A stretch of DNA of 27,544 nt from Seison nebaliae (Eukaryota): the NCBI GenBank assembly GCA_023231475.1, contig JALJEE010000561.1, positions 62,001 through 89,544 of the forward strand, in the 5' to 3' direction. The translations under genes were made by a program, and so were the position numbers. The notes under the pieces are model-generated. The model made no database searches, was not told where the DNA came from, and saw only the letters and a program-made list of their open reading frames with translations. Below, one piece after another: positions 4,201-26,810 of the stretch; position 1 is the first letter of the stretch; each line of letters opens with the position of its first letter.

Positions 4201-6071
4201 AATTTATTGACGAAATCGAGATTTCTAGAACGTCAGAAATTCATGTTGAATCATTTAATGAATCATTTCAATTTTGAAGAATGGAAATTAAATAATTCCA
4301 ATCAATTGAATGATGTGACTAATCTCCAATTGAGTAGTAATTGTGGGGAGAGAACAGTGTTAAAATTGGCATTAGCAGTTAAAGATTTCTCTTGTTCTTT
4401 CGTCATTTTCGATGGATATGATTTTGATATATCAGAAAAGATTTATAATTGTAAGAAACGTTCCTCTATTCCATCTACTCGCGATATGAATAATTATTTT
4501 CGAATTCATCTATCTCGTTTTTATCTCTCATATCAACAATATGATATTGATCGATATTATCGATTATTCTCCAATGATATCATGCAAAAATTTTCGAATC
4601 GATTAGGAAAATGTTCGAATGGAACATTGATTTCTGATAAGAAATCGTTGGAAAAGATTGCAAAGAAATATTCTCACATAATCAAACATTTTCATGATAT
4701 TGATCAGAATAATGATTTGGAGGAAGATGTTTATATTCATCAAATCGATTCGAGTAATGTCCAATTATTGAAATATTTAATATTTCTCGATGAAATTTGT
4801 GAGTTGATGAAGGATATTCCATTCAAAGATTGGCAATGTCTCCATATGAATTGTGGTGACATAAACATCACACATAATAAGAATCCATCATCTGGAAATG
4901 TTTCATCATCTGAATTTAATAATTGTAAGTCTTTATCTATTCTGTCCATGTTGACATCAGATAAGATACCATTCTCTCATCAAATGAATGCCATCCATTT
5001 CAAATTGGAAGCGACAACCATCAACGAACAATATAACGATAATGATCGATCATCTGATTTGGATTCGAATTTGAGTCTCAATCAAAATCCATCTAATAAT
5101 ACTCAATCTGATACTTGTGAATTACAAATTCGTTTAAGTATTCGTCCACTTTATCTCGATTTGAATAAAGATATCATCGTTTTCATTCTAACACTCATCA
5201 ACAATTTGAATCGATGTCATGCTCATTTTTCCAAATTCACGTCATCTCTTAATCAACAATCATCTGAAAGAGAAAGAATCAATTCCACCACCACCACCAC
5301 CACCACCACCTCATTCGGACGAACAATGAATGATCAATCTCAATTACTCCAATCGATACCAATGGAAGTAAAGGAAAGAATTCCATCAAATACTTCATCT
5401 GGAGTAACTGCCACTTCATCAACTCTATTCATCAAACGAGTTATCATCGCTCCTGCCATCTATTTACGAGTTGATTATTCGTCTAATATTCTCGAAACAG
5501 TTCAACGACATTCCGCTATCCTCACTAAATCATCAGGAAAAGTGGACGATCAAAATGACGATAATCGAGACAATTCAACCGATTCGACGATTCAGCGAAT
5601 AAAAGACAATAATGACATTTTAGATGATCAGCCACTATTAATGAAGATTCTTCTCGATTTAGCGAGTGTACATGGACTCTATTTGGAATTGATACGAATC
5701 GATGACAGGTTTATTATTTTTTTCTTTCCATTTCTATTCAAATGAATTTTAGGAGTGGATTCAAATCATTCGATTTGATGTTAAATTCTATTCTAATGAA
5801 ATGGAAAGATCACATTCAACAGAATCAAAGTGTAAAAATCGTTCAAAGTGTATCGGCCCTAAAACCATTTTTTCAAATCGCGTTCGGAATCCACGATCTT
5901 CTTGCCAAACCATTAAGAGACTCACAAACAAACGAGACAATTTTAGGTCAATTTATTCAGAATGTCCGATCAATGGCAGATCAGGCCGGTGTCGCTCTAT
6001 ATGGAGCAGGAAATTCTTCGTGTAATTCGGTGGCGGATCTGGTGGATAGTTTTCGACGAACGATGTTTTAA
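1..6071 (+). CDS. ATG2: Autophagy-related protein 2 (bridge-like lipid transfer protein), 5'-incomplete; exons 1-5708 and 5753-6071
   Basis: The frame is open from base 1. Motifs occur in ATG2 order: CCCDSMYYLIQFFAYSSHYGDFQ (CAD region), DDDYNFV (LIR-like), VKDFSCSFVIFDGYDF, RDMNNYFRIHLSRFYLSYQQY, IRLSIRPLYLDLNKDIIVFI, LFIKRVIIAPAIYLRVDYS. A 44-nt GT-AG intron (5709-5752) joins in frame to SGFKSFDLMLNSILMKWKDHIQQNQ, matching the C-terminal WLxDIxxNQ block. About 2008 aa lie within the window. Confidence 0.88.
1216..1272 (+). repeat. AAC/AAT trinucleotide tract encoding poly-Asn in ATG2 (N7-GT-N10)
   Basis: Seen directly in the sequence. Confidence 0.95.
5287..5310 (+). repeat. (ACC)8 microsatellite encoding poly-Thr in ATG2
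   Basis: Perfect (ACC)8, seen directly. Confidence 0.95.
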
Positions 6072-7185
6072 TTCTTTCCAACATTTCAAAATCTTTCTAA
6101 TCAAACTCTCTATAAACATTCATTCGGATCATCCGGTGTCCTATCACAATATTCGTTTATCTTTATACGAAAAAATTTACTGCATTTCTTTCTCATACGA
6201 GAACAGGAGAAAAGAGCGTCAAAATCGTTCTAACATTCATAATATCTTCCTTTTTATTTCTCTTTCAAATCCCTCCCGCCTCGGATACTCGTATTATAAG
6301 AATTTTATTATTATCATATTATTAGCACATATTCTTTCGCAATCAATATGTCTTTCTCTTTTATTCACTTGAATTTCTTTTTCCTTCTAAATTTTGATTC
6401 AAAATTAAAAAAAGATAAAAATTGAGAGAAAAATAAAATTTATTAAAATTATCATTAAACTTTTAAAAAAAATCTTATTGAGAAAGATCTCAAGATGGTT
6501 ACTCATATGAATAGAATGATTGGAAATGAATGGCATGACTCATGACAATTAGAAAGCGGAGAACATTAAGAAGAGAAATGGTTTCAATAAATAAAATTCG
6601 TCATAAGATTTAGAAAGAATTTGAAAGTGACATCGATAAATCATTGAAGTGATGAACATATATAATAATTAGACTTCGAGGCAGGTATTAAAAACGGAGA
6701 AGATCAATAAAAAGAATGTTGTCGTCTTCATTTGTCGGAAATGAGAGAGAGAGGATTGATATAAGAGAGAAGAAATTTCTGATCATCACAATTGAAGTTT
6801 TGATTTAGTGAATAAACTTCTTAATAAAATTTCGATAAAGTCAAAACTTAGTCGAAACCTTCAAAAAACGATAAATGATGACGTCAGATGATAAAAGTAA
6901 TTCTTCATAATCGATTGTGTCTTATCATTCGATAGATATCCTTCTTTCTCATCAGAATTAATTTTTCTTTTCTTTCATTTGTATTCAGGGCGAACTTCAT
7001 TTCATCGTCGTTCGATGAGTTTTGAGAATGTTTGATCGATTCATTCGTCATCGATCGAGTAAATAAATAAACAACAAAAAAATAAATTTAGTTTTGTTGT
7101 GAGAGAGTCTCATTTCTAATTTGTCTCCAGTAGAATTAGTTTTTTTCCTGAAAATCTTTTCATTTCCATCGAAAAAGAAGAAAAT

Positions 7186-9087
7186 ATGTCTGATACAAAA
7201 GAGAAGAAAGGTCTGAAGAAATCGGATTCGAAAACACGTGTCAAATCATCGTCGACTGCTCGACGATCGAGTAATTCTTCTCGTCGAAGTTCCGTCTCCA
7301 AATCGAAGGGAGGAGTCAAAGTAAAAGAGGATTTGCAACGGAAAGAATTGATTACATCGATGTTGAAGCAATTGGGCGAACTGGATTTCGAATCAAGAGT
7401 TTACACATTTCAACAATTCCTCACTTTCTTCCAAATGCCTCATTTGATTAAAGTGGAACAGAGTTGGAGTGATGTCGTACAACCGAAACAAAATATTTTC
7501 TTCGATTCATTCTTCGAACGATACGTCATTCTCGCCACTAATCAGAATGAGAAGAAAAGTGATACAAAATTCTTAATTCCCGATTGGTATCCGGGCGAAT
7601 TTAAAATTCTTTCATCTAAGCCCAAATTGAGAAAACGATATTGGGTGTTCCAAGGAGCATTCGAATTATATCGATTCGAATCGATGTTTCCAAGAAAGAT
7701 TCGTGTGCTTGATGACACAGTAGCACATATTCGATCGTCATCTGGAGGTAGTGGGAAAACGGAATGGAAGAAAGTTTTGTTGAGAAGGAATGCCTATTTG
7801 TATGCGACAAAGATCGATACGAGAGTTGATGAGAAGAATAATAAAGAAGATTCGTTTGTTCTTAAAGATAAACAAGGTAACTGTTTCATTGTACCACCAT
7901 CCGTACCGATGAGATGGGCAACTGAAATTAAAGACGAAGAATTGTCTCCCGCTTATCAATCGAATGAAGGAACATTCACTTTACCTGAATTGTTGGTGAG
8001 ATATGAATTCCCATTAGATCTCGAATTGACTTCTGGTCCACCAATTACTGAAGTACCGAACTTTTCAAAAAAATTACGTTTCCATGCATATGCCATCGCT
8101 AAATCAATCATCTCAGTTGTCGTCAATGATAATGGTGATGGTGTTCTCACCGAATTAGCACCAAGTATCAAATTCTCTTTATTCTCTCCAAAGTTCTTCT
8201 ATTTTCATTCATCTTGTAAATTATTAACAACTTTTCTCTTTCAATAGATGTCTCACTGCTGGAGCTGCTCAACAACAACAACAACAACAACAATTAGAGA
8301 AAGATCATCAGAATAAAGATGAAGGAAAGAAGGGAAAGAATGGGAAAGAGAAGAAAGATAAAGATCCGAAAAAAGAAGAACAAGAATTGTTGGCACTCCA
8401 AAAGAAATTGTTCGAATACAATCAATTAAGATCGAAATTGTTACAAGCTTATCATAACTGGATTGAGAATTATAAAATTCTCATCTTACCAGCAACTGAA
8501 GCTCAAGTTAGATATATTCTTCTAATTCTTTTCTTCTACTCATATTTCCCCATAGTTAACGGCAGTAGAGATGTCGTTCCATGCCAGTGAGAAGTTGAGG
8601 AAGACGGAAGAGAAAGGAGTGGAGGATACATATTCAGTCAAGTTCAAACAACCAGAACAATCGAACATTTCTCTAAATCTTCCCAGAAATGATACGATGG
8701 AATTTGTTGCTTCGTTTCCAGGTTTAAACATTCTCTTTCAACATTAATCGAAATATCTCTTTATCAGACGATTCATTCGGTGACGATGCTGATTATGATG
8801 ATGATGATTTGGAGGAGAACGACAAATCGAAAGATCGTAAAGATAAATCACGAGATCGATCAGCTCGAATTCGTTCTCGTAGTCGCAGTCGAACTGATCC
8901 GACACGTGTCAAATTGTCCACAGCCGCTTTACATGCAGCGTTAGTAAATTTGATTGATTATTTCATTTGAATTATGTTTGTGTATAGTGGTGGAACGCCG
9001 GCGACAAATGAGGAGATGTTCAATGCAGTTCCGGATAAAATATACACGACGAAAGAGTCGAAAGAAAGTAAAGAATCGAAGAAATAA
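7186..9087 (+). CDS. CABIT-domain protein (GAREM/Themis/Serrano family), about 567 aa; exons 7186-8192, 8248-8506, 8556-8721, 8768-8939, 8988-9087
   Basis: FLIPDWYPGEFKIL, MFPRKIRVLDD and TFTLPELLVRYEFPLDLEL parallel GAREM motifs as I recall them (IPVHYAGQFKLL, AFPERVYVMED, HTIRNIVEKTRLPVNV). Four GT-AG introns of 46-55 nt join the pieces into a 1704-nt open frame. The last donor has a GTA alternative at 8944 that gives a shorter tail. Confidence 0.75.
8270..8293 (+). repeat. (CAA)8 microsatellite encoding poly-Gln
   Basis: Perfect (CAA)8 in exon 2 of the CABIT gene. Confidence 0.95.
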
Positions 9088-9440
9088 AATGGAAAGATTA
9101 GAAGGAAATTAATTAACTAGATGATTTATTAGAAACAAAATTTACCATCATCTATTGTCGTTATGAATTGTGTGGCGTGACAAGTAAAGATGTCGCGTGA
9201 ACGATTTATAATGATGTCGTTGAGTTTATTTCATTGAGTTATCTCCAGTTTTATGGAATTTTTATTAGTTAAAATAAATTCAGTGAAAATTATTGGATGG
9301 AAAGAATGTCGAACCATAAAAATTAGTTAACTAATGGAAAAGGTGATTGAAGAGAGATGATTTCCTAAAAGAAAAGATTTCTAATAAAATTCCGCTGTAA
9401 GAATTAACTCGATGTTGTGATGGAAGTTTCAACTTTTCAA

Positions 9441-10892
9441 TTATAAGAGATAATCGAATTCTGATAAAATATAAACATTATTTGATGACATATATCTTCT
9501 GGCATTTTTTGAATTTGGTTTCTCTTCGATCATCGATCGGATCTCATTCTCATTTGTAAATGAGGAGAAGGAAGCGACAGACGACGAATTATTTGACGAG
9601 TCGTCATCGGATAATGATGATGATGAATTGGTTGAATCATCATTCGAAGAATTATTAGAAAATTGTCTTTTATTTCTACGAATAGTGTTATTGTTATTAT
9701 TGTTACTGTTATGGAATGAGAGTGTGGATGAATAAATACTTTTTTGTTTGTTCACAGGTATTCTTGTTGATTGTTTATAATTCTTTGTTAATTTCGGACT
9801 ATTATATGATCGTTTTACATTTAACGAATGACTTCTCAATTCATTATTTTTATTATCATTATTCTTCTTCATATACGTCCCACCCGACAATTGACTTCGG
9901 GATGATTGGATTTTATAAAGATATTGTTGTTTCGTTGGTGTTTGTTGAGGAGTTGGCGTTCTCGTATGAATGATGAGTGGTGGCAAATAATATTTTTGAT
10001 CATCACATTTCTGACGTGCAACTTTCCCTCCTCCATGTCGACTTTCCTTTCTTCGTTGACTATTTCCTGTTTTTAAATATTTCTCATAATCATCTTTCGA
10101 CGACTTCTTCATTTTCTTTTCATTTCTGCAAATTGAGCGATTGGAAGACGTTGTTGAATCAACATTACCACGATAATCTGAAGAAGATGATGAATACGAA
10201 CATGGTGACGATGGAGACGAAATTAATTCTATCGTTTTCTCTTTCATTCGATTTGGCAACATCTGTTCGATGGAATTTAATCGTTGGAGAATTTTGTCAT
10301 GCTTATTCGCCAAATTCTGCAGATGATTCCTCATACTATCTACTGGACGACTACTCGTTAAAGATCTCATTGTTTGGCTAGTTCGTATCGATAGATCAGA
10401 AGATGATGTTGACGTTATCGAATGTCGACGATATGAATCGGTCACTTCCTTCTTCATTGTCGTAGTTAAGTATTGGTTGAAGGATTTGGATGGATTATTC
10501 ATATAATTCCGCTCGCTATAATTTGAATTTAGAGAATCGTTCATGGAAATTTGAGGAAGTAGAGAACGATCAGTTTTCGCCGAAGCTACGATTAATGTGC
10601 GTTGATGTATCAGTTGACGAATGTTTGAACTTTTCGAAGAATTCTTATGGGAATATCGATTCAATGGGGAAATTGAGTCATTTCCCAATTGTTCCGATTT
10701 CTTCAACATATTCTTCTTTTTCAATTCTGAAGTACTTTGTAAATTCTTCCATTTCTCCTCTTCATGTTTCCGAAGTGATTTCGATAGACGAATTCGAGAC
10801 TCTTCCGAATTATTTCTCTTCTTATTTCCAACCGCTTTTTTAGAACGGTCTGTTGATCGATAAGTCGACGATTTCGTTTTCATGGTATTCAT
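9441..10892 (-). CDS. Uncharacterised Ser/Lys/Asn/Arg-rich protein, 483 aa, probably disordered with one short coiled coil
   Basis: A 1452-nt ATG-to-TAA ORF in AT-rich DNA with codon style like the neighbouring genes. Heptad-like segment MRNHLQNLANKHDKILQRLNSIEQML. No family recognised. Confidence 0.7.
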   Translation of the reverse strand: MNTMKTKSSTYRSTDRSKKAVGNKKRNNSEESRIRLSKSLRKHEEEKWKNLQSTSELKKKNMLKKSEQLGNDSISPLNRYSHKNSSKSSNIRQLIHQRTLIVASAKTDRSLLPQISMNDSLNSNYSERNYMNNPSKSFNQYLTTTMKKEVTDSYRRHSITSTSSSDLSIRTSQTMRSLTSSRPVDSMRNHLQNLANKHDKILQRLNSIEQMLPNRMKEKTIELISSPSSPCSYSSSSSDYRGNVDSTTSSNRSICRNEKKMKKSSKDDYEKYLKTGNSQRRKESRHGGGKVARQKCDDQKYYLPPLIIHTRTPTPQQTPTKQQYLYKIQSSRSQLSGGTYMKKNNDNKNNELRSHSLNVKRSYNSPKLTKNYKQSTRIPVNKQKSIYSSTLSFHNSNNNNNNTIRRNKRQFSNNSSNDDSTNSSSSLSDDDSSNNSSSVASFSSFTNENEIRSMIEEKPNSKNARRYMSSNNVYILSEFDYLL

Positions 10893-11996
10893 TTCCTTCC
10901 ACCAAATTAATTATCTATCTAAATTGTTACTGCTCGCTGGTCAACACGAGAGTAGTTAACATCGGATAAGTATCGTCAAAAAGTTCATAAACATCTAAAG
11001 AAATTTTCTAATAATTTCCATCATTCGTACCCAAATTTTCCGTTAATTGTCATACGGGAAAGTGAGGGAAAATAGCGTAAAAATCGAAACATAAATAAAT
11101 TGATATAATTGAACGTGAGGAGAAAGGTAATAACGATTTTCTTCCATAAACACATACTTACTTCCAATTCTCATGTAACATATACTTCTGTCGGACGAAT
11201 GGAATTATTTCAAAAATCTTACATAATATTATTAATATGCAATTTTGATATGCACAGATAAATTAAAAATCATTAATTTCATTCTCCTCCCCGCTACAAA
11301 ATACGAGACGACTTTTCTCTTATTTATTCTAATTTTCTTTCCTTTTCTTTTTTTGAACGATAAAACTTTTCACTTCGGAATAAGTCAATTCTTAAAAGTT
11401 TTATGCGCAGAAAATAGATTGGAGAAGAAAGTATGGAAGGTGTTTATTTATGCAGTGCGAAGGACTGCGCATAGGCCCTTCCAATGTTAAACATTGAACA
11501 AAGTTTCTCTAAAGGAAAATATCTGAAATTCATGCACTTCCCTATTGTCATAATTAGAAGAGGAAGTTGATTAGCCACTAAATATTTTCATCTTTTGACT
11601 ACCCTCCATTTGCAGTCATTTGGAGAAGGGAATAAACTGATATTCTCGGAAAATTCCGTTTTACCTTTAAGCATTTTCCGATCGAAACGTATATTTATCT
11701 ACGTAAACAAATCAAAAGTTACGACGGGAAATTTTCAAGAAAGAATCTCGAAAGAAAAATTCTCATTATTAACGAATCACTTGAACCTTTTTTTCCTATT
11801 GTCGTCATCTTATTTTATAAATACTCTATAAACATCGAATAAGAGAGACGAGTTTTTTCTTATCAGTCCAACGAAATATGACACGAAAAATTAAATGACG
11901 AATAAAATTTCAAATTTATATTTAATAATTTCATTGAATTTGTGATAATTTAATAAAAATTTTTAATTTTAATCAAATATAAAAATAAAGACGGAA

Positions 11997-13037: not shown

Positions 13038-13328
13038 TAGGTATGTTGTGACGAATTAGTTGATTGGAAGGAGAAAGAAAGTGGAAAAATGGGAAATTGG
13101 AGAAAGATTTTGTAAGGGACATATTGATGGGGGGGGGGGAAGGAAAGCTAAACAATTTAAAAAGTGAAAGAGACGGAGATGATGAAGAGTAGAATGAAAG
13201 AAGAGAATTTAAAAAAAAGATGAATGTCATTGGAGTGTGATGAATGGAGTGTGTAAATGTGAGTGGTGGGAAGGTTAAGCTTTTGTCCATCCGTCGTCAT
13301 CATTTCAAATGAGAAATGTTGTGATAAA
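13038..13328. promoter_or_regulatory. Probable bidirectional promoter and 5' UTRs of TSEN34 and COG6, with a G11 run at 13129-13139
   Basis: Divergent start codons are 291 bp apart. Promoter function is inferred from geometry only. Confidence 0.55.
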
Positions 13329-15761
13329 ATGAAAAATTCAGAAGAAATGAAGAATAGTGAGATGAAATTGTCGAATGTAAGATTGAAGGAGAATTTCGAT
13401 GCGATTAATGATCGAATAATTCGAATTCTTGAAATGAATTTAAATGACGATACATATCAGAATTTATTGGGATCGATTCATCATTGTTTAACGACAACGG
13501 ATGAGAGGAAAGGAGCAGGAGATGAATTGACTGATCGAGAAATGAAATGTTCATATATGAAGAAATATTTCTGGCAGAATAATAATAAGATGGTGGAGAA
13601 TTTATTGGAGAATGTGCAACCGTCGTTGGAGGTGATTGAAAGATTGGAATTGAAGTTCGACGGATTATTAGAGAAAGTGGATGAAATGGAATTCAGTCTC
13701 ACTAAATCTAAAGAGAATTCGAGAGAATTGATAAGTCAAACGACTGAATTGCAGAAAAAATATAATGAGAAGTTGTTGGAGGATCAATTATTAACTTCAT
13801 ATCAACATCGTTTCTTGTTGAATGAGAAGGAGAAATTGATTTTGACACAATTGAACGATAAGAATGAGAAGTTGTGTGAGGAATTCTTCCGAGTTTTCGA
13901 GAAGATTGAACGAATTCGGAAGAACTCGAAAATCCTGTTGCAATGTAAAGAAACGGTAGCGGCCGTTCAAATCATGGAGGAGATATCACATCATTATGAA
14001 TTGGCAAACGAAGAATTGTACAAATGGGTTCAGAATCGTGTAACACGATTATCACAAGAAGAGATTATTGATATTTCGAAAGATTTGGAGAATGCTCTCG
14101 AAATGATGTTGAATCGACCAATTCTATTCTATCATATCATCAAAGAATATGGTCGTACGAGAGGGAAAGAATTGTTAAATTGTTTCGTGAAACGATTAAT
14201 CGATTCGAATCGACAACAAATCGATTCGTTCAATTCATCCAATCCAGATCATAAATTAGATATCGTTCGATTTACTTCCGACGTTTTCGCTTGGTTACAT
14301 CAGACCATCGCTACGGAACGTGAGAATTCTCTCACTATTCTCAAATCAGTTCGTTGTCGTGACAAGTTATTGAGCGATAATGAATTGACAAAGAATTTAT
14401 TCTATTTCAATTCCATTTCTCAACATCATGAGAGAGAAGAAGAGAAGAAAGAAGGAAAAATAGAAGAGAAAGATTATTTCATTCAATTATCAATTCCATC
14501 AAATCAATTCGTTCTCTTAATTCTTGATACAGCAACGTCATATTTATCGAAAGTATTTAATGGGAAATTGAGTAAATTATTCATTTCTCCCATTTACTCT
14601 TTACCATCTATTCATTATCAATTAATTCAAATATTTTCCTTCTACATTCAAACACTCACTAATCATTTACCTTATCATTCTCAATTGATGATTACCATTC
14701 GTGATCTCTATTTGTTTGTGAGGAATATTTTCAAGAATACCATCCATACGGAAGCCACTCGAATTATGGGCAATTTTTCTAATAAGAACATCAAATCGAT
14801 GGTGACTGAACGAATTATTATTGATCTACAACCACCAGATGAATATCAGTCATTTTTAACATCATTCGGTCTCATGATTTATAAACCGACTATTGTCAAA
14901 TATTCTCGTACTCTCTCCATCTTCAATGGAACGGAGGATGACGAGAAGAATGGCATCTTATATGATGCCAACAAAGAAATAATTTCAATTCTAAAGAATG
15001 TTACACAAACTCTACTTTCTGCCATCAATTTAGGAGCGACACAATTAACTCGCAAATCCGATATCAATGTCTTCACACTCAATTGTCTCATTCCATTGAA
15101 GTATGCAATCTCGATGTACGAACGACATTCGTCCAAACATACTCAAGAGATTATGGATATGATGGAAGCGCGAATCTCAACTGAAATCGAAAGTTTAGCG
15201 AACGAACAAGTCTCTCAAATACTCATCATTTGTCAACTGTCTGAAATTTATAAATATGTTTTGGTTAATAGAAAAAAAAAAGGTTTAGACAAACAACAAT
15301 TAGACGAAGAACAATTAGATGAAGAACAATCAAACGACATACCAAAAATGACTTACATTGATCAATTGTTTTCTGACGAGAAATATCGAAAACAACTTCG
15401 TATTACATTCTCGAAAATACGATCCTTCTTCATCACACCATCCAACTTATTTCTTCCTTGTATTCTGAAGTTACGTGACGAACGAATCAGGTTTAATTTT
15501 TTTTTATTATAATTATTATTTGTTTATATTTCTCATATTTCTCTCCCGTCCAAATATTTTAGAACTGAAATTCTAGAGAAATCTTTGAAAATCTTCGAGA
15601 ACGTTTATCGTCTAATTTATTCGTATTTAATGATGACAAAGGATAATGATAATGGAGATGACGAATGTAAAACGATAAATCTTTTTATTGAGTATTTAAA
15701 TGAGAATAATTTACGAATATTATCAATCGATGAAATGAGCGATTGGTTCAAAAGTAAATGA
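13329..15761 (+). CDS. COG6: Conserved oligomeric Golgi complex subunit 6, about 786 aa; exons 13329-15490 and 15563-15761
   Basis: N-terminal coiled coil, ANEELYKWVQ, LNRPILFYHIIKEY and DIVRFTSDVFAWLHQTIATERE (cf. DPLRYVGDMLAWLHQ). The first in-frame ATG is at 13329; the ORF track's start at 13263 is GTG. A 72-nt intron (15491-15562) restores the frame to a TGA at 15759-15761. Confidence 0.9.
15285..15329 (+). repeat. 15-nt tandem repeat x3 in COG6 (LDKQQ/LDEEQ/LDEEQ)
   Basis: ttagacaaacaacaa ttagacgaagaacaa ttagatgaagaacaa. Confidence 0.85.
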
Positions 15762-15991
15762 TGAAGCGAAGTATATAAGGAAGAAGAAATTGAGAAGAAT
15801 GTTGTTGCAAAAGAAAGACAAGAAATTATTAGAAAGATTTATGCGATGGAAAATATGACGATAATGAAAATTATTAAAATCTATTTAAAAACAAAAGAAA
15901 AGAAGAGACTGGATAAAAAAGCGGATGTTATTGTTGTTAAATGATTGAAAAGAAAATAAATAATATTTCCATTAAACATCTTCTAATTATC

Positions 15992-18900
15992 TCATGTTTC
16001 AGATGATAATGTATACCATTCGGTAGTCATTTGATTCAGATCCAATTTACTCAAATCAATAATCGTCTGTCCCAGAAACTTTTGTTCATTCGACATAAAT
16101 GAACGATCATTATTTACTGTCACTTCCAACTGTTTCTTTGTCGCATCCATCAATGACAATTGCCATTCAAATCTAAAAGGGGAATGGAATATTTAAAATT
16201 CTGAAATAAATTCTCTTTAAAAAATTTAACTGATCTTCGAATTCTGGATCGAGATTATTTCGAATAACAACCGATTTCCGTTTCTGAGTACGTTCAGGTA
16301 ACAAATATAATTTGACATATGGATCAGATAAATTATCTTTATCTACATTCCTCAAATTTCTACATTTATGAATGACTACTTTCAATTTACTTCGTTCCAT
16401 AATATAACCGACACTAATTTGAATTTTGCCCCAACCTAAATCTTGATTAGAATTTGGTCGTTGTCTCAACGACGGATGTTCCTCTTCTAACAATCGATTA
16501 TTTGGTGACACATCACCATTATTATTATCTATATCAACATTTTCTGGAAGAATGTGTTGATCATCAAAATTCTTCTTGTCTATCGAGTTTGATTCGTTAA
16601 AGGACAATCCTTCATCTTCCGTCAAAGATGATTGTGGAGATGATGCTTCACTCTCCAACACCATAATCTTCAACCAAATCTTTAAGAATATTTTTGCATT
16701 ACCAACAGAATTTCCTGAATCATTCGTTATATCAAATGGACGTTCCATCGTCATATTTGGTCGATTGAGGAGAACGTTAATGGGAATTTGGACGGATCCA
16801 ATTCCTTCAGCTGGTTTATAATTCATTAAAGAGATTGTGAAATTTTGAGTTTCGCACGACATTACTAGAAATTGGAAGGTCTTATTCCAAGCCGGTTTCG
16901 TCGTTGACGCTTTAAACGATGTCTCTTCCGTTTTCTGTCCGACTTTCAGAAGACAATATGGACTTGGTTCCATTACATTATTATTTGCATCTGAAGTCAT
17001 CTGAAGAAGAGTTTTTATGAAATAAACTTTCATAAATAAATCAAACAGGAACGCCTTGAGCATAATCTACATGAACGAACAAGACTGCACTCGCTTTCGA
17101 CAGTTGACCCGATTTGTCCTGGAAAAGTCATTTTAAGCGATTAATAAGAAAAATTTATAGAAATTATCATTCACAATTCCAGAAAGTATAGCGACTAGCA
17201 AGAATGTTGAGAGATTAAAGAAGGTTGAAAGTTGCGAAGAGAATAAAATTGGAACAAGAACAACAATCGAATTCTGATCAACTAAAAAGAAATGTGGAGG
17301 AGAACTCGATTATGATGGATTAGAAGAAGAGAATTAAATTCTGATGATTCTCTGAAGAGAAATTAAATTGGAATGAATTGGAAGAAAGAGAATTGAACAT
17401 CAGCAAAATTTAAAAAAGTTTAAGCACAGACGTATTGAAGAACGGATAGCGAAAGAAGAAGAGGGGCAAGAGCAGAAGAAACAATTCACATTTTCTAATT
17501 AAACATGGCCAGATGAAAGCGAAAGAGAAAAGGATAAATAATAAATATTTGTTGAAATTCTTTAACCAATTGGTCAGATGCGTCGATCTAAAATATCAAG
17601 AGATAAATAAGATAATATATTAAGATTATTTAAAATGTGTTTGTATATTAGGAGAATGGAAAGGACAAATGGAGGAAGGAAAACATAATTATTAATAGGA
17701 CTCCAAATTCCCGTTAATAGGAACATTTAAAGATCAATTTAGCTGAATGAGGATCAGGAGAGAATTATTGAACCTTAGCATAGTCTAACGAATTAGACGA
17801 TAAGTTGTACCAATACGATTTTAGATGTAACATTCCAGTCAACGTATTCTCCAAAGGAATCCACTTCGATAACATTAAATATTGGATAGAATTGAAGAGA
17901 TAATTAAGAAAGTAACTGAATCGAAAACACCTTGATCTTTCAATGTTTTCACTGAGAGACTGACATCACCTAAAGCGTCATCTTCATCAGCATCCTTGTC
18001 GTACATATTCAATTCGAGACGAGCACCATTCTCATCTTGAATGATGGCTTCATAAATCGAATTCCAAACTGGTGACAATGTCCTCTTTTGTGTATGTGTT
18101 CGGAAATATTTATTTCCAACTAACAAATTCGAAAAAAAAAGTATTCGAATACATTAATTCACAATACTTAATCATTACGAAAGACGTTAACATCGAATTT
18201 TAACATATGGATCCGATTTGGCTCCAAATCCAATATCTTGTTTCCTCAATTCTTTCGCTTCAACCACTTCGATACGTAACACTCCCTATCAAATTCGAAT
18301 GAATATAATTAAAATCATCTCATAAATTTACTAACAGCACATAAATGATATTCCAAATCGGAAAGATCGATATCTTTGAAAATTGGAATTGTGTATCGAT
18401 TGGGCAAAACGAATAATGAATCGAATGTATCATTGACTTGTGTCAGAATCGTATCACTATTAGTTTAAATAAATATGTTATTTGAATGGAAATATGATAA
18501 ATGGAAGTTTAAACGTTATGCCTGGTACGCTAAGTGCATTGGCAACATCAGTAAAATCGAAATTGATATCCTTTCATAATTCAAATATGATTTTGAAGAA
18601 AACTTTTAATTTTCATGAAAAATTTAAATAGAACCGGTGATTGAAGGAAGAAAACGGTAATTCCACCAAACAACGGCATCCGTTTACATAACGGTTTCAA
18701 TACAATACGAATATTACCATGTAATTGTAAGTTTTTTATACCAGCCGTTATTCCTTTCACTTTACATTTGATACGAGCGTCACCTGCATATCTGAAATGT
18801 GGATAAGAAAATAAAAAACTGAATAAAAACCATAAAAATTATGAAGAAATTTCTAACAGAATTTCTGTATCGATTAGAATTTCATTTCTTCGTACATTTT

Positions 18901-19495: not shown

Positions 19496-19623
19496 AATTT
19501 TCTTCAAGAGAAAATTGTCCAAACACCAAAATTGTTTCGGAAGAGAATTTTCGAAAAAACCTAATTCTTTTCGATGAAAAAGTATAAACTTTATTTCTTT
19601 TTCTCTTCTACCTTTTAGATATC

Positions 19624-20675
19624 TTTTTTTTTTTTTTTATTAAGACGCGGAATCCCTATAGGTTAAAGCATAAAGAAAATCAATAAGAGAAGAATAATTG
19701 TTGCTGGAAATAAACTCACGACCACGAGACAACTCATCCCTCAGATGAATAGGAATAAATGATTCGAGATTAAAATTGTTAACTAAAGCGTCCAAATCTT
19801 TCGTAGAGGTGGGATATAATAAAGCATAATATTGACAGAAATATTTTGTAGGACTGTTGAATTGTTCACATTCTGCATATGTCGGATGAGGAAAAGAAGA
19901 TATGTTAATATCGGAAACGATTGACAGATACCTGTTAGCGATTAGCAATAGGAAAGAAGAGATGCCCATTAGGCAGAACATAAATGCTCGATTAAAGGGA
20001 CGTTTACATCCGAGTAAGATGTGGCAGCACCGATTGTATGCTCTATCCATAGAGCTCATGGACTGTATGGAAAATGAAATAGATGTCTGAATTCCTTAAA
20101 AATCCGTGCAGAATGTACGAAATAGCTGGATTTTCATGTCGATTGAGAATAGTTTACACCGATGGTGAAAGGAATAAAACGCTCGGATAAATTTTGATCT
20201 GAGCTTGTCAATGGACGATGAAGACTTCAAACGATTATCGATTCTACATCCGAGGAAAATGAGATCATTGTAGACTATTTCACGAAGTTCCGAATAGCGA
20301 GGGAAAATGGTTCGATTAGTTATGACTTTGCACTTTCTGGCATTACATTCAATTCCGCATTGGCTCATTCTTCTCACTACTACATCATAAACCGTTTTCA
20401 GGTTTTTTGATGATGTTTGCGAGGATGACTATATCATCAGCATATGGAAGAACTGCGGGATAATTATAATTTTCCAATGAAAAAGAGAATCGGTTATTGC
20501 AAGGAATTATTACATCGTCAAGTATTTTCCCAAATATCCAAGGGGCGAGGATGGAACTTTGACGTACACCTTTATTGATTACATATTCCTTTCCAATTTG
20601 CCCATTTATTTTTATTCGATCAGTAGAATCTTTCGATAAATATCGTATATATCGTAATAAATAGAATGATTTAAG
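19624..20675 (-). mobile_element. 5'-truncated, inactivated non-LTR retrotransposon (LINE): RT C-terminal half and poly(A) tail
   Basis: The minus strand reads RIKINGQIGKEYVINKGVRQSSILAPWIF...LPYADDIVILA (YADD at 20433-20444), then a 1-nt frameshift near 20403-20420, then GIECNARKCKVI...LIFLG...IQLFRTFCTDF, an in-frame TAA at 20096-20098, continuation in the same frame to a stop at 19640-19642, and A15 at 19624-19638. Confidence 0.9.
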
Positions 20676-21217
20676 TTAGTAAATTATTTATTTTTATAGT
20701 TAATCACTCGATGGTATGTGTCGATGAGAGGTAGATATGTGAACTCCCATATCTTTTCCCCCATACATACAACGAATAAGTTGATTACATAAGAAATTGC
20801 TAATAATCATCAACTCTCAATGTTTTTGTTCTTCGATTCATTCACTGCATAACTTCCATCATTCAATAGCGAATAGATGAAGAGTTACATTTTCATCTTT
20901 TTCTTTTTTCAAATAAATATATTATTCAAATTGTTGGCAAATTACATAATAACTGATAGAAAAATTTTTTTCTTTAATTTTCTTAAATTTGTTTTATTGA
21001 AATAAAAATCCAGATTATAAATAATTTCCATTGTAAAATGGGAATTTAAATTGATGGAATTTAATAAATTTATTTTCATAATGATAATTCGATAATGAAA
21101 CGAGAGAATGAATTCAATCACATTTTTTTCTTATTAGAATTTCTTTTCTTGTTTTTCAGTTCAGAAAGTTATGAATTCAGTTCTCATTCTCTAATTTGAG
21201 GAGGAAATGAGAAGAAA

Positions 21218-21667
21218 ATGGTATTGAATAGAATAAATAAAATTTATCCTTTTCTCTACAAATCATCTTCACTCTTCCATCGAACAATACATCTACAATC
21301 GTCATTGATGAAAGAACGATTGGCAAATTTGAAGATTAGTGAATCGGCAAGAAATTATATTGAAAATGAATTGAAATTGACTAATAATGAATATTTACGA
21401 ATTCTTATCGATAGTGGCGGTTGTTCAGGATTTCAATATAAATTTGAAATTATTAATGAAAACGAACGGAATGACGATGATCTCCTTTGCAAATTACATG
21501 ATAATGATAAGAGAATATCGATAATTGTTGACGAGATTTCTCATGATTTGATCAAGGGCTCTCTACTCGATTATCAAAAGGAAATTATTCGGAGCGGATT
21601 TGTCATCGACAAAAATCCACAAGGTGCCACTAACTGTTCATGTGGCGTGTCGTTCAGTTTGAAATAA
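21218..21667 (+). CDS. ISCA2: Mitochondrial iron-sulfur cluster assembly 2 homologue (A-type carrier, HesB family), 149 aa
   Basis: LRILIDSGGCSGFQYKF and NPQGATNCSCGVSFSLK, with EIIRSGF typical of ISCA2. The basic, acid-free N-terminus resembles a mitochondrial presequence. Confidence 0.93.
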   Translation: MVLNRINKIYPFLYKSSSLFHRTIHLQSSLMKERLANLKISESARNYIENELKLTNNEYLRILIDSGGCSGFQYKFEIINENERNDDDLLCKLHDNDKRISIIVDEISHDLIKGSLLDYQKEIIRSGFVIDKNPQGATNCSCGVSFSLK

Positions 21668-21877
21668 ATTCTTCAAAAAAAACTCTCTTAAATAGAAGAG
21701 AACAAATCGAATCAATCACTTCCACAATCAACAAATAAATATAAGATATTTAACTTCCCTAAGGATGTTTATTGGTGAAATTCGAAAGTTTTCTCTGTCA
21801 AAATATCTTCATGTCGATTTATTTAATTCTAATAAAAATTTTTATTTCAAATTCCTATTTTTACTATTCACTGAAAA

Positions 21878-23956
21878 TTATCGCCGATCTCGAAAGTAAC
21901 CACCATCTCCATTCCAGTATTTCGTCCAACCTGGTAAATTGAATTTGGAATGTCGATTCCGAATCTCATGTTCATTTTCGATAGATTCATCTGTAAAATC
22001 TGTGAAGAGTATTAACATTTTAAAAGAGGAAAAATTCATTAACCTCCCAAATGGTTATGATAATTTGTTAGTTCATTCAAGTTCATCATCGACCCTTCTG
22101 GTGATCGGATATTAGTAAATTCTTTATGAATACTATTTTTCAATGGAGGCGGTTCTAAAATGTACGTTGTCTGACGTATATGTTCCTCATGTTTTCTGGA
22201 AATGGAATTCTTTTCGATTAATTCTATTCCGTCTTCATTCTTCGGTAAGACAATTATCGGGGATTTTTGTATGTCGTTTAACTCTGTTGAATTGACATTT
22301 GATTCTAATAAAATCTTCTCGGGACGTAATCCGTTGTTGACGGAACTATTGTCTGATTTTGGAGATGGTGGAGTCGTCGGTTTAGGAGGAGGTTGTGCAG
22401 TAACAGATTTGGATGGAATTTGTATTTTGATTTTTTCTTCTTTCCCATTATCTTTCGCTGCCAAAAGTAATCTTTTACTAATGTTATTCTTTGGAATTTT
22501 ATCTTCTGGCATCTTCTCGAAATCTGAAAAATGAATGACACAAATTAAACAAACCATAAAAAACGATAACTATTCAACGATGCATCATAACAAATTTTAT
22601 TTGGCGCTATACGATTAAAACGATTAGCATGTTCCGGAGGCAATAACGACATATCGAAATTTTTATATTTTCCCGTAGTTCCACCATAACATCCCAGACA
22701 TGCACAACATGTGCCGCAACAACGTTGAGACGAGCAAGATCCTTTTTTAGAAAAATAAATAAATAAAAATTTAATGTAGGTAAAATTTTCTTTTTTCAAA
22801 AATATCGAACCATATGGTCCGATTAGACAATCATTTTGACTTCCACATCGTCGGCAGAATGAATAGTTCCTGCATCTCGAACAATGCCAAACTAGCCAGC
22901 CAGGACGCCAACAACAATAATATAACAGAATAAGAAGTAGTAAACCACCAATAATACCTGTGGGATGAATGAGAAGTAGAAGTTGGAAGAATTATGGAAA
23001 GAGTACCGCAAATTAGATAAATTAAGAAATAATTCGGTCTTGGTTTCAAATTCGGATCGACAGTACTGGTAGAAGTGGTAAAGAATTCCGTTACTTGTCC
23101 CACTACCAAGTGAGAAATTTTATCATTTTCATAGAACAATCAAGTGAACCTCGACAATTTCCTGGAAAAACACCGATCAAATCACCATATTGGTCATCAC
23201 CACAATTGGGACTGAAAGCTGAGTCGCATCTCATTTGTGCATCGATACATCGACGAGAAAATGGTTCGCAAGAAAATTGACTGAATAATGTTGTGTCACA
23301 TTGTCCGATATGGTATGAGAATATATCGATAGCGAATGTTAATTTAGCATTGGAAGCACTTTCATGATCGATCGAGAATGAAATTAGAAAAAATTTAGTA
23401 ATAATCATAAAAAAACCCCATATATACGATGATTCTGAATTTCCTGTTATTTCGTCCATCTCTAATTGGAGAAACATTGGGAGCACTACCACATACCTTC
23501 CCATAAACGCTAGCTGATAAATTGTTTCAAAGATGTTGATAAATGAAATTAACTTGAGTCCGAGTTGAATGCAAGTGTGTCATCGTTCATTTGGAGAACT
23601 TCCACGTTGGCAACATCGCAATTATCATTGGGAGTGAGAACCAAACTAAATTTATTTGGTAGTAACTCATCTTTACGAATGTTAATTTCCGTCAACTCAT
23701 CATAATATCCTAGTGCCCATTCTCTTTTCAATTCAATATTTATTGTACAAATGGCTATTCGATTAATCGTACCAGAAATTGAGAAACCCCAATCAGCCTC
23801 ATATGTCTCCTCGTTGTTATTGGCACAAAGTGTTGATAAATCGACTAAGAATAATTATTAAAAATATGTAAATTATCGAATAGTAGAACTTATCTTAAGG
23901 GCATCAACTGAATAATGGACGAATACGAATAGGCAGATATAAATTGAGATAATCAT
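21878..23956 (-). CDS. Type I membrane protein (signal peptide, CUB-like region, LDLa-like module, TM helix, Cys-rich juxtamembrane segment, disordered tail), about 559 aa; exons 23956-23890, 23844-23554, 23513-23417, 23358-23150, 23102-23007, 22957-22811, 22741-22571, 22523-22044, 21999-21878
   Basis: Signal-like MIISIYICLFVFVHYSVDA; a four-Cys region ending KVCG...FRIIVY; six-Cys CDTTLFSQFSCEPFSRRCIDAQMRCDSAFSPNCGDD...GNC; TM YFLIYLICGIIGGLLLLILLYY formed across a splice junction. Eight introns of 40-69 nt give a 1680-nt open frame. The CUB call is weak. Confidence 0.72.
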
Positions 23957-24886
23957 TCCAAATCATGAAAGAAGGAATGTTTCAGGAAAAAGGTAGTTTG
24001 AAAGAAAAATTAATTTTCTACAATTATTCTCCCGTTCTAAAGTTCTAAACATTCAAAAATTTGCCTTCGTCAAAATAAAACACTTGAATTTATTAATTTT
24101 TAGGTAAATTACCTAATTGACTCATCTTAATAATGAGAAGAATGGACTTGAATTATTTTGATGGAAAGTATTAGGGGAGATGTGTAGAAAACAAAATTTG
24201 CCTCAAACAAATTTCATTTCTGAAAGTTATTCTTAAAGGAAAATTTCTATTACGAAATTATTATTAGATTTCCTACTTTAAACTCTCAAAATTTTCAATT
24301 TCCAAATTTTGATGATTCTCTTTCGGATTGTTATCAATCATAATAAGAACAATTTATTTGTTATATATCTTATTCCGTACACAGGAAATTATGTGACTCT
24401 ATTAAATATTTCTTTCCAATATCAAAATTTGGAAGTTTCAAATAACTTTTCAAATGTCATAAAACATAGAATTTACTCGTTCATTAACTCATTTGACTGG
24501 AGACAAAATGTCATGATATTTTTTATCGTGAATTATTCCATATTATTCATGTTTATCCCGACGGGCATGTTACTTAAAACTTACAACTCTTACAACTTGT
24601 AAGACAGATAACAATTTCACAGTTCTATCAATCAACAATTTTCTATTCCGGAAATTAAACAATTCCCGACATTGTTTGAATCAAATTATACTTTGTCATT
24701 TTTCGATAATGATTTTTATTGAAATTATGAGAAAAATAAATGTAATTTTAAATTTATCGGAATAAAGTTAACTGTTAATTAATAAGTGGATGGAGGGATT
24801 ATAATATTAGATCTTGTTCACATTATTATTGTGAATGCATTCAAAATTTATCTTCGTTCACATTTTATGTGGAGTGATTGGATTGT

Positions 24887-26707
24887 TTACAAGGAGTGCA
24901 ATATGAAGAAGAATTGTTGAATAACTATGTTGTCGCATGGATGAAGATCGGCTTTACAAAACAATTCAGTCATCTCATAAAAATTTAAGAATATGAATCT
25001 TCGTTTTACATCCTCATTTTCGTGCTGTAACAACAACCATAAATAATAGAGAAATCGAGAGTTCATGAATTGCAGGTACTCCGTGCCCAATTCCAGAGCC
25101 TGTTTCATATAAGAACTATAAGGTGTATTTAGGTATTGAGCGCCTATATGTTTCCGTGGTTGCTTACCGGCACCTTTATACAGAACCTTAATGTGAGGTA
25201 TCTCTTTAAGTAGTTGAACCACCATGGCGGTTAAAGATTGAAGACGTTTCATGTAATATTGATAAGAGACGGCTGCTGGATGATTATCATAGTTTATAAC
25301 GATAACATGTGGAATCGGTTGTTTGTTTCGATAATCTGTCATGATATTTTTCAGATAATATTCAATATCTTTATGTATATCAAAATCTGTCGCATGACGA
25401 ATTGGTGGTCCATGAAGTTGATAAGTTAAATTGAAATGTAAACCGAATATATCTCGCGCAACGATATTGGTGTGAGCTTTCGCATCTACCCATTGAATGA
25501 TCTGCAATCTGAACAATTTGTAGAAAATGTGAATGAATTGTCGAAGGGTAGAGTCTCCAATGAACAAGATATTTCGACCTTTCACTTGGTCTCGAATGTA
25601 TGGATTGAGAGCAATCGTCTTCACATTCTCCAAACTTTCCGCACTATAATTTAAGATTACACGGGTGAAGTTCTCGTAGAATTCGTACCAGTTCTCAAAT
25701 GTTGTTCCGTCATTCACGAAATAGGTACAATGTTTGAACATCCACAAATTGTTAATATAGAATCCTTGGGAGAGTATGTCGTTCATAAAAATTCGATAAA
25801 GATTTCGAATCGAATCATTATGACTGATATTCGGATAGAAGTTCTCAATTCTCATTCCGCTATAAAACGTGTTACATAAAGGCACTTTAATACGTTTCTT
25901 CCTTTGAATGTTTCTCTCCGTCTGATTATCTTCTACGACCTTAAAATGTTTTTTAGAATTTTCAAAAAAATATTTATTGGTAAAATATCGTTGATATTGG
26001 TGAGTTTCTTTATTGGAAATCGGTCTCATATTTTGCACGTAAACGAATTTTCGATTGGTATGACAATAACCATCCACTTTCTCACAATAGAATTGACTGT
26101 ATTCCGTACTTCGATTACAGTACATGCTGTTCCATTTTGGGTATACTGTTACGCTACAGATTGCCTTCCTATCATTTTAAATTTTACTAATCTAATCGAA
26201 TGGATTATCGAAGACAAACTTGCGGTTTCTTGAGGCTGGAATGTAAAATTCATATCGCTCTACCAAATACCATTTAAATATAATATCTAACACTTCATTG
26301 GGAAGCCAATTTGTTTGCTTTTCATAAACAGTTCTACGAAAACAATTTTCGATATTTAAATACTTACAAACATAACACTCCTCCAAAGCAGACGCAGAAG
26401 AATGTAATTTTATGGAATAATTTTGCTTATTTGTTTCTTCCAATAAATCAAAAGATTTTGGATAAATAATTTCTCTGGCGAGTTTGGAAGAATTGATAAG
26501 TTTAGTGTCTTGCATTGAAAATTGTTTGTCGTCAAATTTGGAAGAATTGATAAGTTTAATGTCTTGGATCGGAGATTGTTTATTATTAAGTTTGGAAGAG
26601 AAAATTGTAATATTCGAGTATGGAAACCAATTGGTAAAATAATAAAGAAGTATGATTAGTAGAATAATGACGATATATAGCCGCCTGTAACATTTGGGAA
26701 ATTTCAT
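24887..26707 (-). CDS. NXPE-family (neurexophilin/PC-esterase) type II membrane protein, about 589 aa; exons 26707-26220 and 26168-24887
   Basis: N-terminal signal anchor LYIVIILLIILLYYF; Cys block ICSV...YCN...FYCEKVDGYC; ILFIGDSTLRQF (GDS at 25550-25558); HGPPIR; YEMT...DLHP. A 51-nt intron (26169-26219) joins the two ORFs in frame. Confidence 0.85.
26481..26599 (-). repeat. 54-nt (18-aa) tandem duplication in the NXPE stalk, about 2.2 copies
   Basis: Units 26481-26534 and 26535-26588 encode KQSPIQDIKLINSSKFDD and KQFSMQDTKLINSSKL. Confidence 0.9.
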
Positions 26708-26810
26708 TTTCTTTGATAAAATAGGAAATTTCGTCAGAAATTTTATAATATTTCATCTGTTGTTCCGTAGATCTCATTCAAAACTTGTTTGCAAGGTCGG
26801 TTAATTTCAC

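What the first reader, a model, noticed from the sequence alone, without database searches (positions are those of the whole stretch)
5709..26219. Rewritten 5' splice-site code: 26 of 27 introns begin GTT
Seen: donor hexamers are ATG2 GTTTAT; CABIT GTTCTT, GTTAGA, GTTTAA, GTTAGT; COG6 GTTTAA; E-Syt GTTGGT, GTTCGA, GTTAGA, GTTCTA, GTTTAA, GTTAGT, GTTAAC, GTTACT, GTTCAA, GTTAAA, GTTTGA, GTTAAA; CUB/LDLa gene GTTCTA, GTTAAT, GTTTTT, GTTCAC, GTACTC, GTTCGA, GTTATC, GTTAAT; NXPE GTTTGT. Position +4 is unconstrained and +5 is G in only 9 of 27. Many donors are forced by nearby stops, phase and protein homology (e.g. 18191, 22043, 23553). Even if T made up 45% of intron bases, 26 of 27 would have a chance on the order of 1e-8. 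Established: the U2-type consensus is GTRAGT, with +3 opposite U1 nucleotide 6 and +4 to +6 later read by the U6 ACAGAGA box; +3 T is a minority class in animals, although Entamoeba uses GTTTGT. Inference: this lineage has a divergent spliceosome, for example U1 with a 5' end of AUACUAACC, or altered U6, U1-C or PRP8 contacts. I do not know whether this has been described for this organism.
Basis: partly seen in the sequence, partly recalled or inferred. Interest (0 to 1): 0.9.

Follow-up and report, generated by a model that had tools for sequence, protein, structure and literature searches.

The report
Animal introns that begin GTT
In this stretch of DNA from the marine rotifer Seison nebaliae, 26 of 27 introns begin GTT rather than the usual GTA or GTG, which likely reflects a lineage-wide change in how its splicing machinery reads intron starts, probably through an altered U1 RNA that is still untested.

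Summary
Confirmed. The window encodes proteins deposited as Seison nebaliae (Rotifera). 26 of 27 donors begin GTT. 23 of the 27 are backed by published RNA-seq transcript alignments (22 GTT, 1 GTA), each with one possible GT-AG placement; these include a 21-nt microexon that the deposited protein lacks. Unused GT dinucleotides nearby are followed by T only 24 of 49 times. One intron could be traced in relatives: 28 unspliced gene calls, rotifer-like by a quick tree, break at the same codon, and 26 imply GTA/GTG there. So an old intron was rewritten. +5 G is enriched (9/27) and +6 G is absent (0/27), so the reading register is unshifted and only +3 has flipped. The likeliest mechanism is a U-to-A change at U1 nucleotide 6 (about 50%). 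Seison's snRNAs could not be read, so this is untested, and genome-wide extent is inferred from six genes. Printed precedent: Entamoeba (GUUUGU, co-evolved U1); this scan also noted GTT(T) donors in Bonamia. Ten literature searches found no animal case. Unlike Entamoeba, these genes are intron-rich and +4 to +6 are loose.

The parts
   Evidence: open-frame model only; alternative GTA donor at 5668 is frame-compatible
8193..8247 (+). CABIT-domain gene intron 1, GTTCTT..TAG, 55 nt, phase 2; position shared with other rotifer-like genes
   Evidence: model equals P0009; 28 unspliced relatives break at the same codon
8507..8555 (+). CABIT intron 2, GTTAGA..TAG, 49 nt
   Evidence: transcript alignment; P0009
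8722..8767 (+). CABIT intron 3, GTTTAA..CAG, 46 nt
   Evidence: transcript alignment; P0009
8940..8987 (+). CABIT intron 4, GTTAGT..TAG, 48 nt
   Evidence: deposited protein P0009 only; GTA at 8944 is frame-compatible with weaker acceptors
15491..15562 (+). COG6 intron, GTTTAA..TAG, 72 nt
   Evidence: open-frame model only; COG6 by Pfam
16173..16230 (-). E-Syt intron, GTTAAA..TAG, 58 nt
   Evidence: transcripts; P0001
17001..17046 (-). E-Syt intron, GTTTGA..CAG, 46 nt
   Evidence: transcripts; P0001
17119..17566 (-). E-Syt intron after the microexon, GTTAAA..CAG, 448 nt
   Evidence: two transcript isoforms
17567..17587 (-). 21-nt alternatively spliced microexon of E-Syt, absent from the deposited protein
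   Evidence: included in isoforms i2 and i7, skipped in i8; fills a 6-column gap against P0003
17588..17773 (-). E-Syt intron, GTTCAA..TAG, 186 nt (655 nt, to 17119, when the microexon is skipped)
   Evidence: transcripts; P0001
17864..17916 (-). E-Syt intron, GTTACT..AAG, 53 nt
   Evidence: transcripts; P0001
18120..18191 (-). E-Syt intron, GTTAAC..TAG, 72 nt (retained in one isoform)
   Evidence: transcripts; P0001
18286..18335 (-). E-Syt intron, GTTAGT..TAG, 50 nt
   Evidence: transcripts; P0001
18457..18514 (-). E-Syt intron, GTTTAA..TAG, 58 nt
   Evidence: transcripts; P0001
18571..18634 (-). E-Syt intron, GTTCTA..AAG, 64 nt
   Evidence: transcripts; P0001
18792..18857 (-). E-Syt intron, GTTAGA..CAG, 66 nt
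   Evidence: transcripts; P0001
18935..18977 (-). E-Syt intron, GTTCGA..CAG, 43 nt
   Evidence: transcripts; P0001
19319..19365 (-). E-Syt intron 1, GTTGGT..CAG, 47 nt
   Evidence: transcripts; P0001
22000..22043 (-).
   Evidence: transcript; P0008
22524..22570 (-). P0008 gene intron 7, GTTATC..CAG, 47 nt
   Evidence: transcript; P0008
22742..22810 (-). P0008 gene intron 6, GTTCGA..AAG, 69 nt
   Evidence: transcript; P0008
22958..23006 (-). P0008 gene intron 5, GTACTC..CAG, 49 nt: the one GTA donor
   Evidence: transcript; P0008
23103..23149 (-). P0008 gene intron 4, GTTCAC..TAG, 47 nt
   Evidence: transcript; P0008
23359..23416 (-). P0008 gene intron 3, GTTTTT..AAG, 58 nt
   Evidence: transcript; P0008
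23514..23553 (-). P0008 gene intron 2, GTTAAT..CAG, 40 nt
   Evidence: transcript; P0008
23845..23889 (-). P0008 gene intron 1, GTTCTA..TAG, 45 nt
   Evidence: transcript; P0008
26169..26219 (-). NXPE-family gene intron, GTTTGT..TAG, 51 nt (one isoform spliced, one unspliced)
   Evidence: transcript; NXPE4_C by Pfam

Best explanation
Seison nebaliae's ordinary short GT-AG introns in this window start GTT, likely a lineage-wide rewrite of position +3, and the most likely cause is a predicted U-to-A change at nucleotide 6 of U1 snRNA that would pair with the new +3 U. Shown: the GTT sites are the ones spliced; +5 G is still favoured and +6 G is absent, so the reading register is the normal one; one intron is old and starts GTA/GTG in most relatives' gene calls. 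Inferred: the pattern holds genome-wide; existing introns converted one by one; U1 (or the main U1 copy) changed to match; U5, U6 and the U6 methylation work much as usual, since +4 U is not favoured and +5 G tends to stand in when the exon ends in a pyrimidine.
For: 22 of 23 transcript-backed donors are GTT; models equal three deposited proteins. Unused nearby GTs: T in 24 of 49. +5 G 9/27 against 6.6% background (p 4e-5), +6 G 0/27. With a canonical U1 end (read from L006) +3 pairs in 1 of 27 donors, and true donors are barely told from 70 nearby unused GTs (AUC 0.56 by pairs, 0.63 by energy). 15 GTRAG sites in the gene bodies, two of them GTAAGT, are not used as donors in the models. Orthologous intron: 26 of 28 unspliced relatives imply GTR. 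+5 G in 5 of 7 donors after a pyrimidine against 4 of 20 after a purine (p 0.02, one of two splits tried). Precedent: Entamoeba and Mastigamoeba have U1 ends that match atypical donors (bioRxiv 10.1101/2022.06.08.495308). U1 genes with exactly this A6 end exist in eukaryote-like metagenome contigs.
Against: Seison's U1, U5, U6 and splicing proteins were not read, so the mechanism has no direct evidence. The same preprint reports standard U1 ends in most lineages with atypical donors: 69 Saccharomycotina, Giardia, Trichomonas, Thecamonas, five Mamiellales, the last with a pyrimidine at +3. It also notes that +3 U can pair with the unchanged U6 ACAGA. Even with the A6 end, mean pairing is only 6.6 of 11, and its better AUC (0.74) is circular. 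No canonical-donor species was run as a control for the AUC. The sample is six genes on one contig; the comparison with relatives is one intron, read indirectly from protein tails, with related rows. In L006 the A6 U1 is the weaker-scoring copy beside a canonical U1, so such variants can be minor paralogues.
Confidence: 0.5

Rival explanations
1. U1 is canonical and tolerates a U-U mismatch at +3; the +3 U is selected later, by a G-U wobble with the unchanged U6 ACAGA box, by a changed U6, or by changed proteins (U1-C, LUC7, PRP8, SNRNP27K).
For: Most lineages with atypical donors keep a standard U1; U6 ACAGA can pair with donor positions 2-6 including +3 U; +5 G is read by U6 as well as U1, so its enrichment does not single out U1.
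Against: A wobble or tolerance would allow +3 U but does not by itself explain the near-exclusion of +3 A/G (1 of 27), which a canonical U1 pairs best; perfect GTAAGT sites at 4925 and 26367 are not used in the models (26367 lies in a transcript-covered exon).
Confidence: 0.3
2. U1 snRNP is lost or marginal, as reported for Cyanidioschyzon, and donors are found by intron length, the 3' end and U5/U6 pairing, with GTT fixed by U6.
For: Weak U1-type signal outside +1 to +3 (-1 G 12/27, +4 A 11/27); introns are short and uniform (median 49 nt); Seison lacks about a third of BUSCO genes (PMC8351084 passages).
Against: The genes are intron-rich, with 19 different hexamers in 27 donors and an alternatively spliced microexon flanked by 186- and 448-nt introns; the U1-less case is a reduced system.
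Confidence: 0.08
3. A canonical U1 reads these donors in a register shifted by one base, or with +3 bulged out (Roca and Krainer type; recalled, not read).
For: Bulging +3 raises mean pairs from 5.6 to 6.2.
Against: Both registers put U1 C4 opposite +6 and predict G there: 0 of 27; G is enriched at +5 instead.
Confidence: 0.04
4. The introns are recent insertions of a mobile element whose end is GTT.
For: None direct; only 1 of 27 positions could be compared with relatives.
Against: No intron pair shares more than 12-16 AT-rich bases; the one traceable intron is shared in place and phase with bdelloid-like and monogonont-like genes.
Confidence: 0.04
5. Composition, annotation bias or a local oddity: T-rich introns or a self-trained gene finder make GTT look fixed here, but the genome is ordinary.
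For: Intron interiors are 50% T; one contig only.
Against: Transcript junctions, not predictions, give 22 of 23; unused GTs give 24 of 49; P at most 1e-5 under the harshest background; short-intron lengths in the window match 73 gaps elsewhere in the transcript table (median 49 in both).
Confidence: 0.04

Closest known systems
Entamoeba GUUUGU(U) donors with co-evolved U1 (Roy and Bowser, bioRxiv 10.1101/2022.06.08.495308; read: abstract, Introduction, Results parts 1-2 of 3, section 22)
   Same: Near-fixed U at +3 of GT-AG introns in place of A/G.
   Different: Entamoeba is intron-poor with a homogeneous hexamer (88-90% GUUUGU), +4 U and +5 G fixed, and U1 changed at two positions. Here: an animal, 27 introns in 9 genes, 19 hexamers in 27 donors, +4 U under-represented, +5 G in a third; U1 unread.
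Mastigamoeba (modified U1) and Mamiellales GYGCGY donors (standard U1), same preprint
   Same: Intron-bearing lineages with atypical donors; Mamiellales have a pyrimidine at +3.
   Different: Different motifs; they show that compensation in U1 can be present or absent.
Standard U2-type GTR..YAG introns of animals (consensus as stated in PMC12766944, passages)
   Same: GT-AG ends, pyrimidine-rich 3' end, 23 of 27 YAG, leaning to -2 A, -1 G and +5 G.
   Different: +3 is T in 26 of 27 instead of A/G.
Shifted- or bulged-register 5' splice sites (Roca and Krainer; recalled, not read)
   Same: Donors begin GTT.
   Different: Those are a minority class with G at +6; here GTT is the rule and +6 G is 0 of 27.
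Bonamia ostreae GTT(T) donors
   Same: Nearly all introns reported to begin GTT.
   Different: A protist with 19-32-nt introns and a +4 T preference; not an animal.

Membership tests
U2-type spliceosomal introns | GT..AG termini, removed from mRNA | tested here: met
   27 of 27 GT-AG; 23 donors seen spliced in transcript alignments
U2-type spliceosomal introns | pyrimidine-rich 3' end with YAG | tested here: met
   13 TAG, 10 CAG, 4 AAG; T at -6 in 20 of 26
U2-type spliceosomal introns | purine at +3 (GTR consensus) | tested here: not met
   1 of 27
U2-type spliceosomal introns | removal by the U1/U2/U4/U5/U6 spliceosome | not testable with these tools
   no Seison snRNA in the window, no genome held
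U12-type (minor) introns | donor xTATCC (motif as in PMC3033335 passage) | tested here: not met
   0 of 27 donors
Entamoeba-type transformed donor with co-evolved U1 | near-fixed +3 U | tested here: met
   26 of 27; 22 of 23 by transcript
Entamoeba-type transformed donor with co-evolved U1 | fixed +4 U and +5 G, homogeneous hexamer | tested here: not met
   +4 T 7/27, +5 G 9/27, 19 distinct hexamers
Entamoeba-type transformed donor with co-evolved U1 | massive intron loss | tested here: not met
   27 introns in 9 genes of the window, 1.4 per kb of coding sequence; window only
Entamoeba-type transformed donor with co-evolved U1 | complementary change in the U1 5' end | not testable with these tools
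   Seison U1 was not obtained
Shifted/bulged-register donors | G at +6 rather than +5 | tested here: not met
   +6 G 0/27, +5 G 9/27
Introner-derived introns | mutual sequence similarity | tested here: not met
   only 12-16-nt AT-rich matches among 27 introns
Introner-derived introns | lineage-specific positions | tested here: inconclusive
   1 of 27 testable, and it is shared with relatives

The most novel reading that the evidence does not exclude
Seison nebaliae is the first animal known to have rewritten its 5' splice-site code genome-wide, converting thousands of old introns from GTA/GTG to GTT together with a matching change in U1 snRNA, without the intron loss and signal homogenisation that accompany such changes in protists.
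Probability: 0.45. Interest if true: 0.88.

Novelty: new variant of a known kind. Interest (0 to 1): 0.76.

Why it matters
The purine at +3 is treated as a constant of animal splice donors and is built into aligners (PMC12766944). An intron-rich animal that has flipped it shows that the donor code can change while many introns with loose signals must keep being spliced. Earlier cases are mostly intron-poor protists, where change is explained by having few substrates. Public Seison genome and RNA-seq data make the key test (read U1, U5, U6; build the logo) a small job, and rotifer relatives give a short path on which to date the switch and to ask whether snRNA or introns changed first. It also warns that standard splice models will mis-score this lineage.

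Tried and rejected
No whole genome held, so no genome-wide logo. Sequencing runs: no RNA holder listed; the four runs laid on 7000-26900 were contigs and showed no intron-sized joints, which says nothing about splicing. Rfam found no snRNA in the window. No E-Syt relatives in prokaryote or viral contigs. Of 20 metagenome matches to the variant U1 motif, 15 had no Rfam hit and are treated as chance; no exons with introns were identified by eye in the three U1 loci read, so their donor usage is unknown. No unspliced acanthocephalan gene call turned up, so the switch is not dated against Acanthocephala. The careful tree did not finish; a quick tree was used. A tally of short gaps that GMAP wrote as deletions versus split introns (67:6 outside the window, 18:3 inside, counted by hand from 3 of 400 parts) is similar in both sets; reading it as low donor scores rests on my recall of GMAP's rule and has no control species, so it is a hint only. 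No branch-point consensus emerged (YTRAY in 14 of 27, scattered). The -1 G versus +5 G split was not significant (p 0.22). Rejected: shifted register, U12 type, introners, base composition.


Full report
Identity. An E-Syt exon of the window is 100% identical to a protein deposited as SNEBB_008442 of Seison nebaliae, a seisonid rotifer. Two more window genes match SNEBB_008444 and SNEBB_008438. No whole genome is held.

The observation. I built exon models for six genes. Three equal the deposited proteins letter for letter. Deposited models are predictions, so I looked for RNA evidence. Supplement 2 of PMC8351084 is a GMAP table of Trinity transcripts assembled from RNA-seq. I read parts 1, 124 and 125 of 400 and searched the held text, which is cut at 19,906 rows. 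All 41 held rows for one contig were seen; those in range fit the window with a constant offset of 62,000. They give 24 junctions with 23 distinct donors: 22 GTT and 1 GTA (23006). For each, only one equivalent placement has GT/GC-AG or AT-AC ends. GMAP's site model, where it has one, is MaxEnt-based (PMC12766944 passage), so by inference any bias runs against GTT. Four donors lack a spliced transcript in the held rows: 8193 and 8940 (agree with P0009), 5709 and 15491 (frame only; each has one GTA or GTG alternative that keeps the frame). The cut part of the table may hold more.

More than chance. T follows GT in 36% of coding GTs, 39% of all window GTs and 47-53% of GTs inside introns. Unused GTs within 30 nt of a donor are GTT in 24 of 49 (Fisher p 1.3e-5). 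The 95% interval for the donor share is 0.81-1.00. P(26/27) is 6e-11 to 9e-7 and P(22/23) is 3e-9 to 1e-5 across these backgrounds.

Anatomy of the signal (27 donors). -2 A 14; -1 G 12; +3 T 26; +4 A 11, C 8, T 7, G 1; +5 G 9 (background 6.6%, p 4e-5); +6 G 0. There are 19 different hexamers. Acceptors: 13 TAG, 10 CAG, 4 AAG. 25 introns are 40-72 nt; two are 186 and 448 nt. Three things follow. First, G at +5 and never at +6 means the normal register; a shifted or bulged canonical U1 predicts +6 G. Second, +4 U is not favoured; loss of U6 methylation favours +4 U in worms, humans, plants and fission yeast (PMC11347140 passages), so that route looks unlikely (inference). Third, +5 G is commoner after an exon ending in a pyrimidine (5 of 7 against 4 of 20, p 0.02; the -1 G split gave p 0.22), a trace of the usual exon-side versus intron-side compensation. 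Only +3 has flipped.

Old introns or new? The 27 introns share no more than 12-16 AT-rich bases. For one intron I could look at relatives. Databases hold single-ORF gene calls that run through exon 1 of the CABIT-family gene and on into the intron. The intron splits a codon after its second base, so the next residue reads intron bases +2 to +4: Tyr, Trp or stop means GTA/GTG, Ser GTC, Phe/Leu GTT. Among proteins P0009-P0062, 28 relatives break off at that codon, while spliced members go on as Cys-Leu or similar: 10 Tyr, 15 stop, 1 Trp, 1 Ser, 1 Phe. Left out: full-length spliced members and 10 short N-terminal fragments without the anchor. In a quick tree (the careful search did not finish), 9 of the 28 group with Adineta ricciae (9 of 9 GTR), 18 with Brachionus plicatilis (17 of 18 GTR), and one fragment was not placed. 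That these calls are unspliced genomic readings is inferred from the shared break point; the rows are related and it is one position. It still shows an intron older than the split of these groups that starts GTR in relatives and GTT in Seison. No unspliced acanthocephalan call was found.

Mechanism. In the standard pairing, donor +3 faces U1 nucleotide 6 (established knowledge; Rfam consensus). A canonical U1 end taken from L006 pairs at +3 in 1 of 27 donors and separates true donors from 70 nearby unused GTs poorly (AUC 0.56 by pairs, 0.63 by duplex energy). An A6 end pairs in 26 of 27 (AUC 0.74 and 0.72, circular by design). No canonical species was run as a control. Fifteen GTRAG sites in the gene bodies, two of them GTAAGT, are unused in the models. 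A scan of metagenome contigs for the A6 end gave 20 matches, of which 5 are full U1 genes by Rfam: the variant exists in nature, though in L006 it sits beside a canonical copy. Seison's own snRNAs lie outside the window and were not obtained, so the mechanism is untested. I put U1 compensation at 0.5, a canonical U1 with selection by U6 or proteins at 0.3, U1 loss at 0.08, and shifted register, introners and artefact at 0.04 each.

What is known. Roy and Bowser (bioRxiv 10.1101/2022.06.08.495308; abstract, Introduction, Results parts 1-2 of 3 and section 22 read; supplements not seen) report GUUUGU at 88-90% of Entamoeba introns with a matching U1, a different match in Mastigamoeba, and standard U1 in yeasts, Giardia, Trichomonas, Thecamonas and Mamiellales. 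They tie transformed donors mostly to massive intron loss. Seison differs: an animal, 27 introns in 9 genes of this window, loose +4 to +6. The Seison genome paper has no passage on donor consensus or snRNAs in the terms searched. Also seen as passages or one section: PMC10125929, PMC10639083, PMC12766944, PMC3033335, PMC10599564; none mentions this in what I saw. Ten searches found no report for Seison, rotifers or another animal; the library lacks most subscription journals, and large comparative supplements were not checked. This scan had no notes on this genome but noted GTT(T) donors in Bonamia and minority shifted GTT classes in two other genomes; a search for an animal case returned nothing. 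I did not test those notes.

Verdict. A real, transcript-backed and probably lineage-wide change of the 5' splice-site signal in an animal: a new variant of a kind known from Entamoeba. Interest 0.76.

Noticed in passing
L001:1080-1240, L011:343-503, L002:2888-3048, L018:347-507: Full-length U1 genes (Rfam 138-141 bits) with A at position 6, in two versions whose flanks are about 80% alike, in repeat-rich eukaryote-like contigs; the organism and its donor usage are unknown. A possible second lineage with a changed U1.
   Followed up: partly
L006:1155-2553: A 2.9-kb unit whose ends overlap by 26 nt, holding U2, a canonical U1 (121 bits), an A6 U1 variant (85 bits) and, by eye, a third U1-like copy across the ends.
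   Followed up: partly
window 17567-17587 (-): 21-nt alternatively spliced microexon in E-Syt, missing from the deposited protein.
   Followed up: yes
window 17864, 18571, 22742, 23359 (-): 4 of 27 acceptors are AAG, all transcript-backed.
   Followed up: partly
window 19616-20943: High-copy repeat (contig depth 185-1030 against 8-25 elsewhere) with a reverse-transcriptase fragment at 20388-20675 (RVT_1 26.5 bits, under the cut-off); covered by unspliced transcript rows.
   Followed up: partly
window 12000-13055 (-) and 21308-21667 (+): Single-exon genes: a tRNA intron endonuclease subunit (PF01974), head to head with COG6, and an Fe-S biosynthesis (IscA-like) protein (PF01521).
   Followed up: partly
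window 9444-10910 (-): Single-exon, Ser/Lys/Arg-rich ORF of about 480 aa with no Pfam hit, covered by an unspliced transcript.
   Followed up: no
window 7186-9087 (+): The CABIT-domain family found here returned only rotifer- and acanthocephalan-named members among its named hits.
   Followed up: partly
window 27237-27360: AT-rich hairpin, 34-nt arms 91% complementary.
   Followed up: no
window 17160-17500 (+): Short open stretches with coding-like composition on the strand opposite the 448-nt E-Syt intron; perhaps a gene remnant.
   Followed up: no
P0045, P0018: Two relatives' gene calls imply GTT and GTC at the orthologous intron, so a +3 pyrimidine occurs at low frequency in other rotifer-like genomes.
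   Followed up: partly
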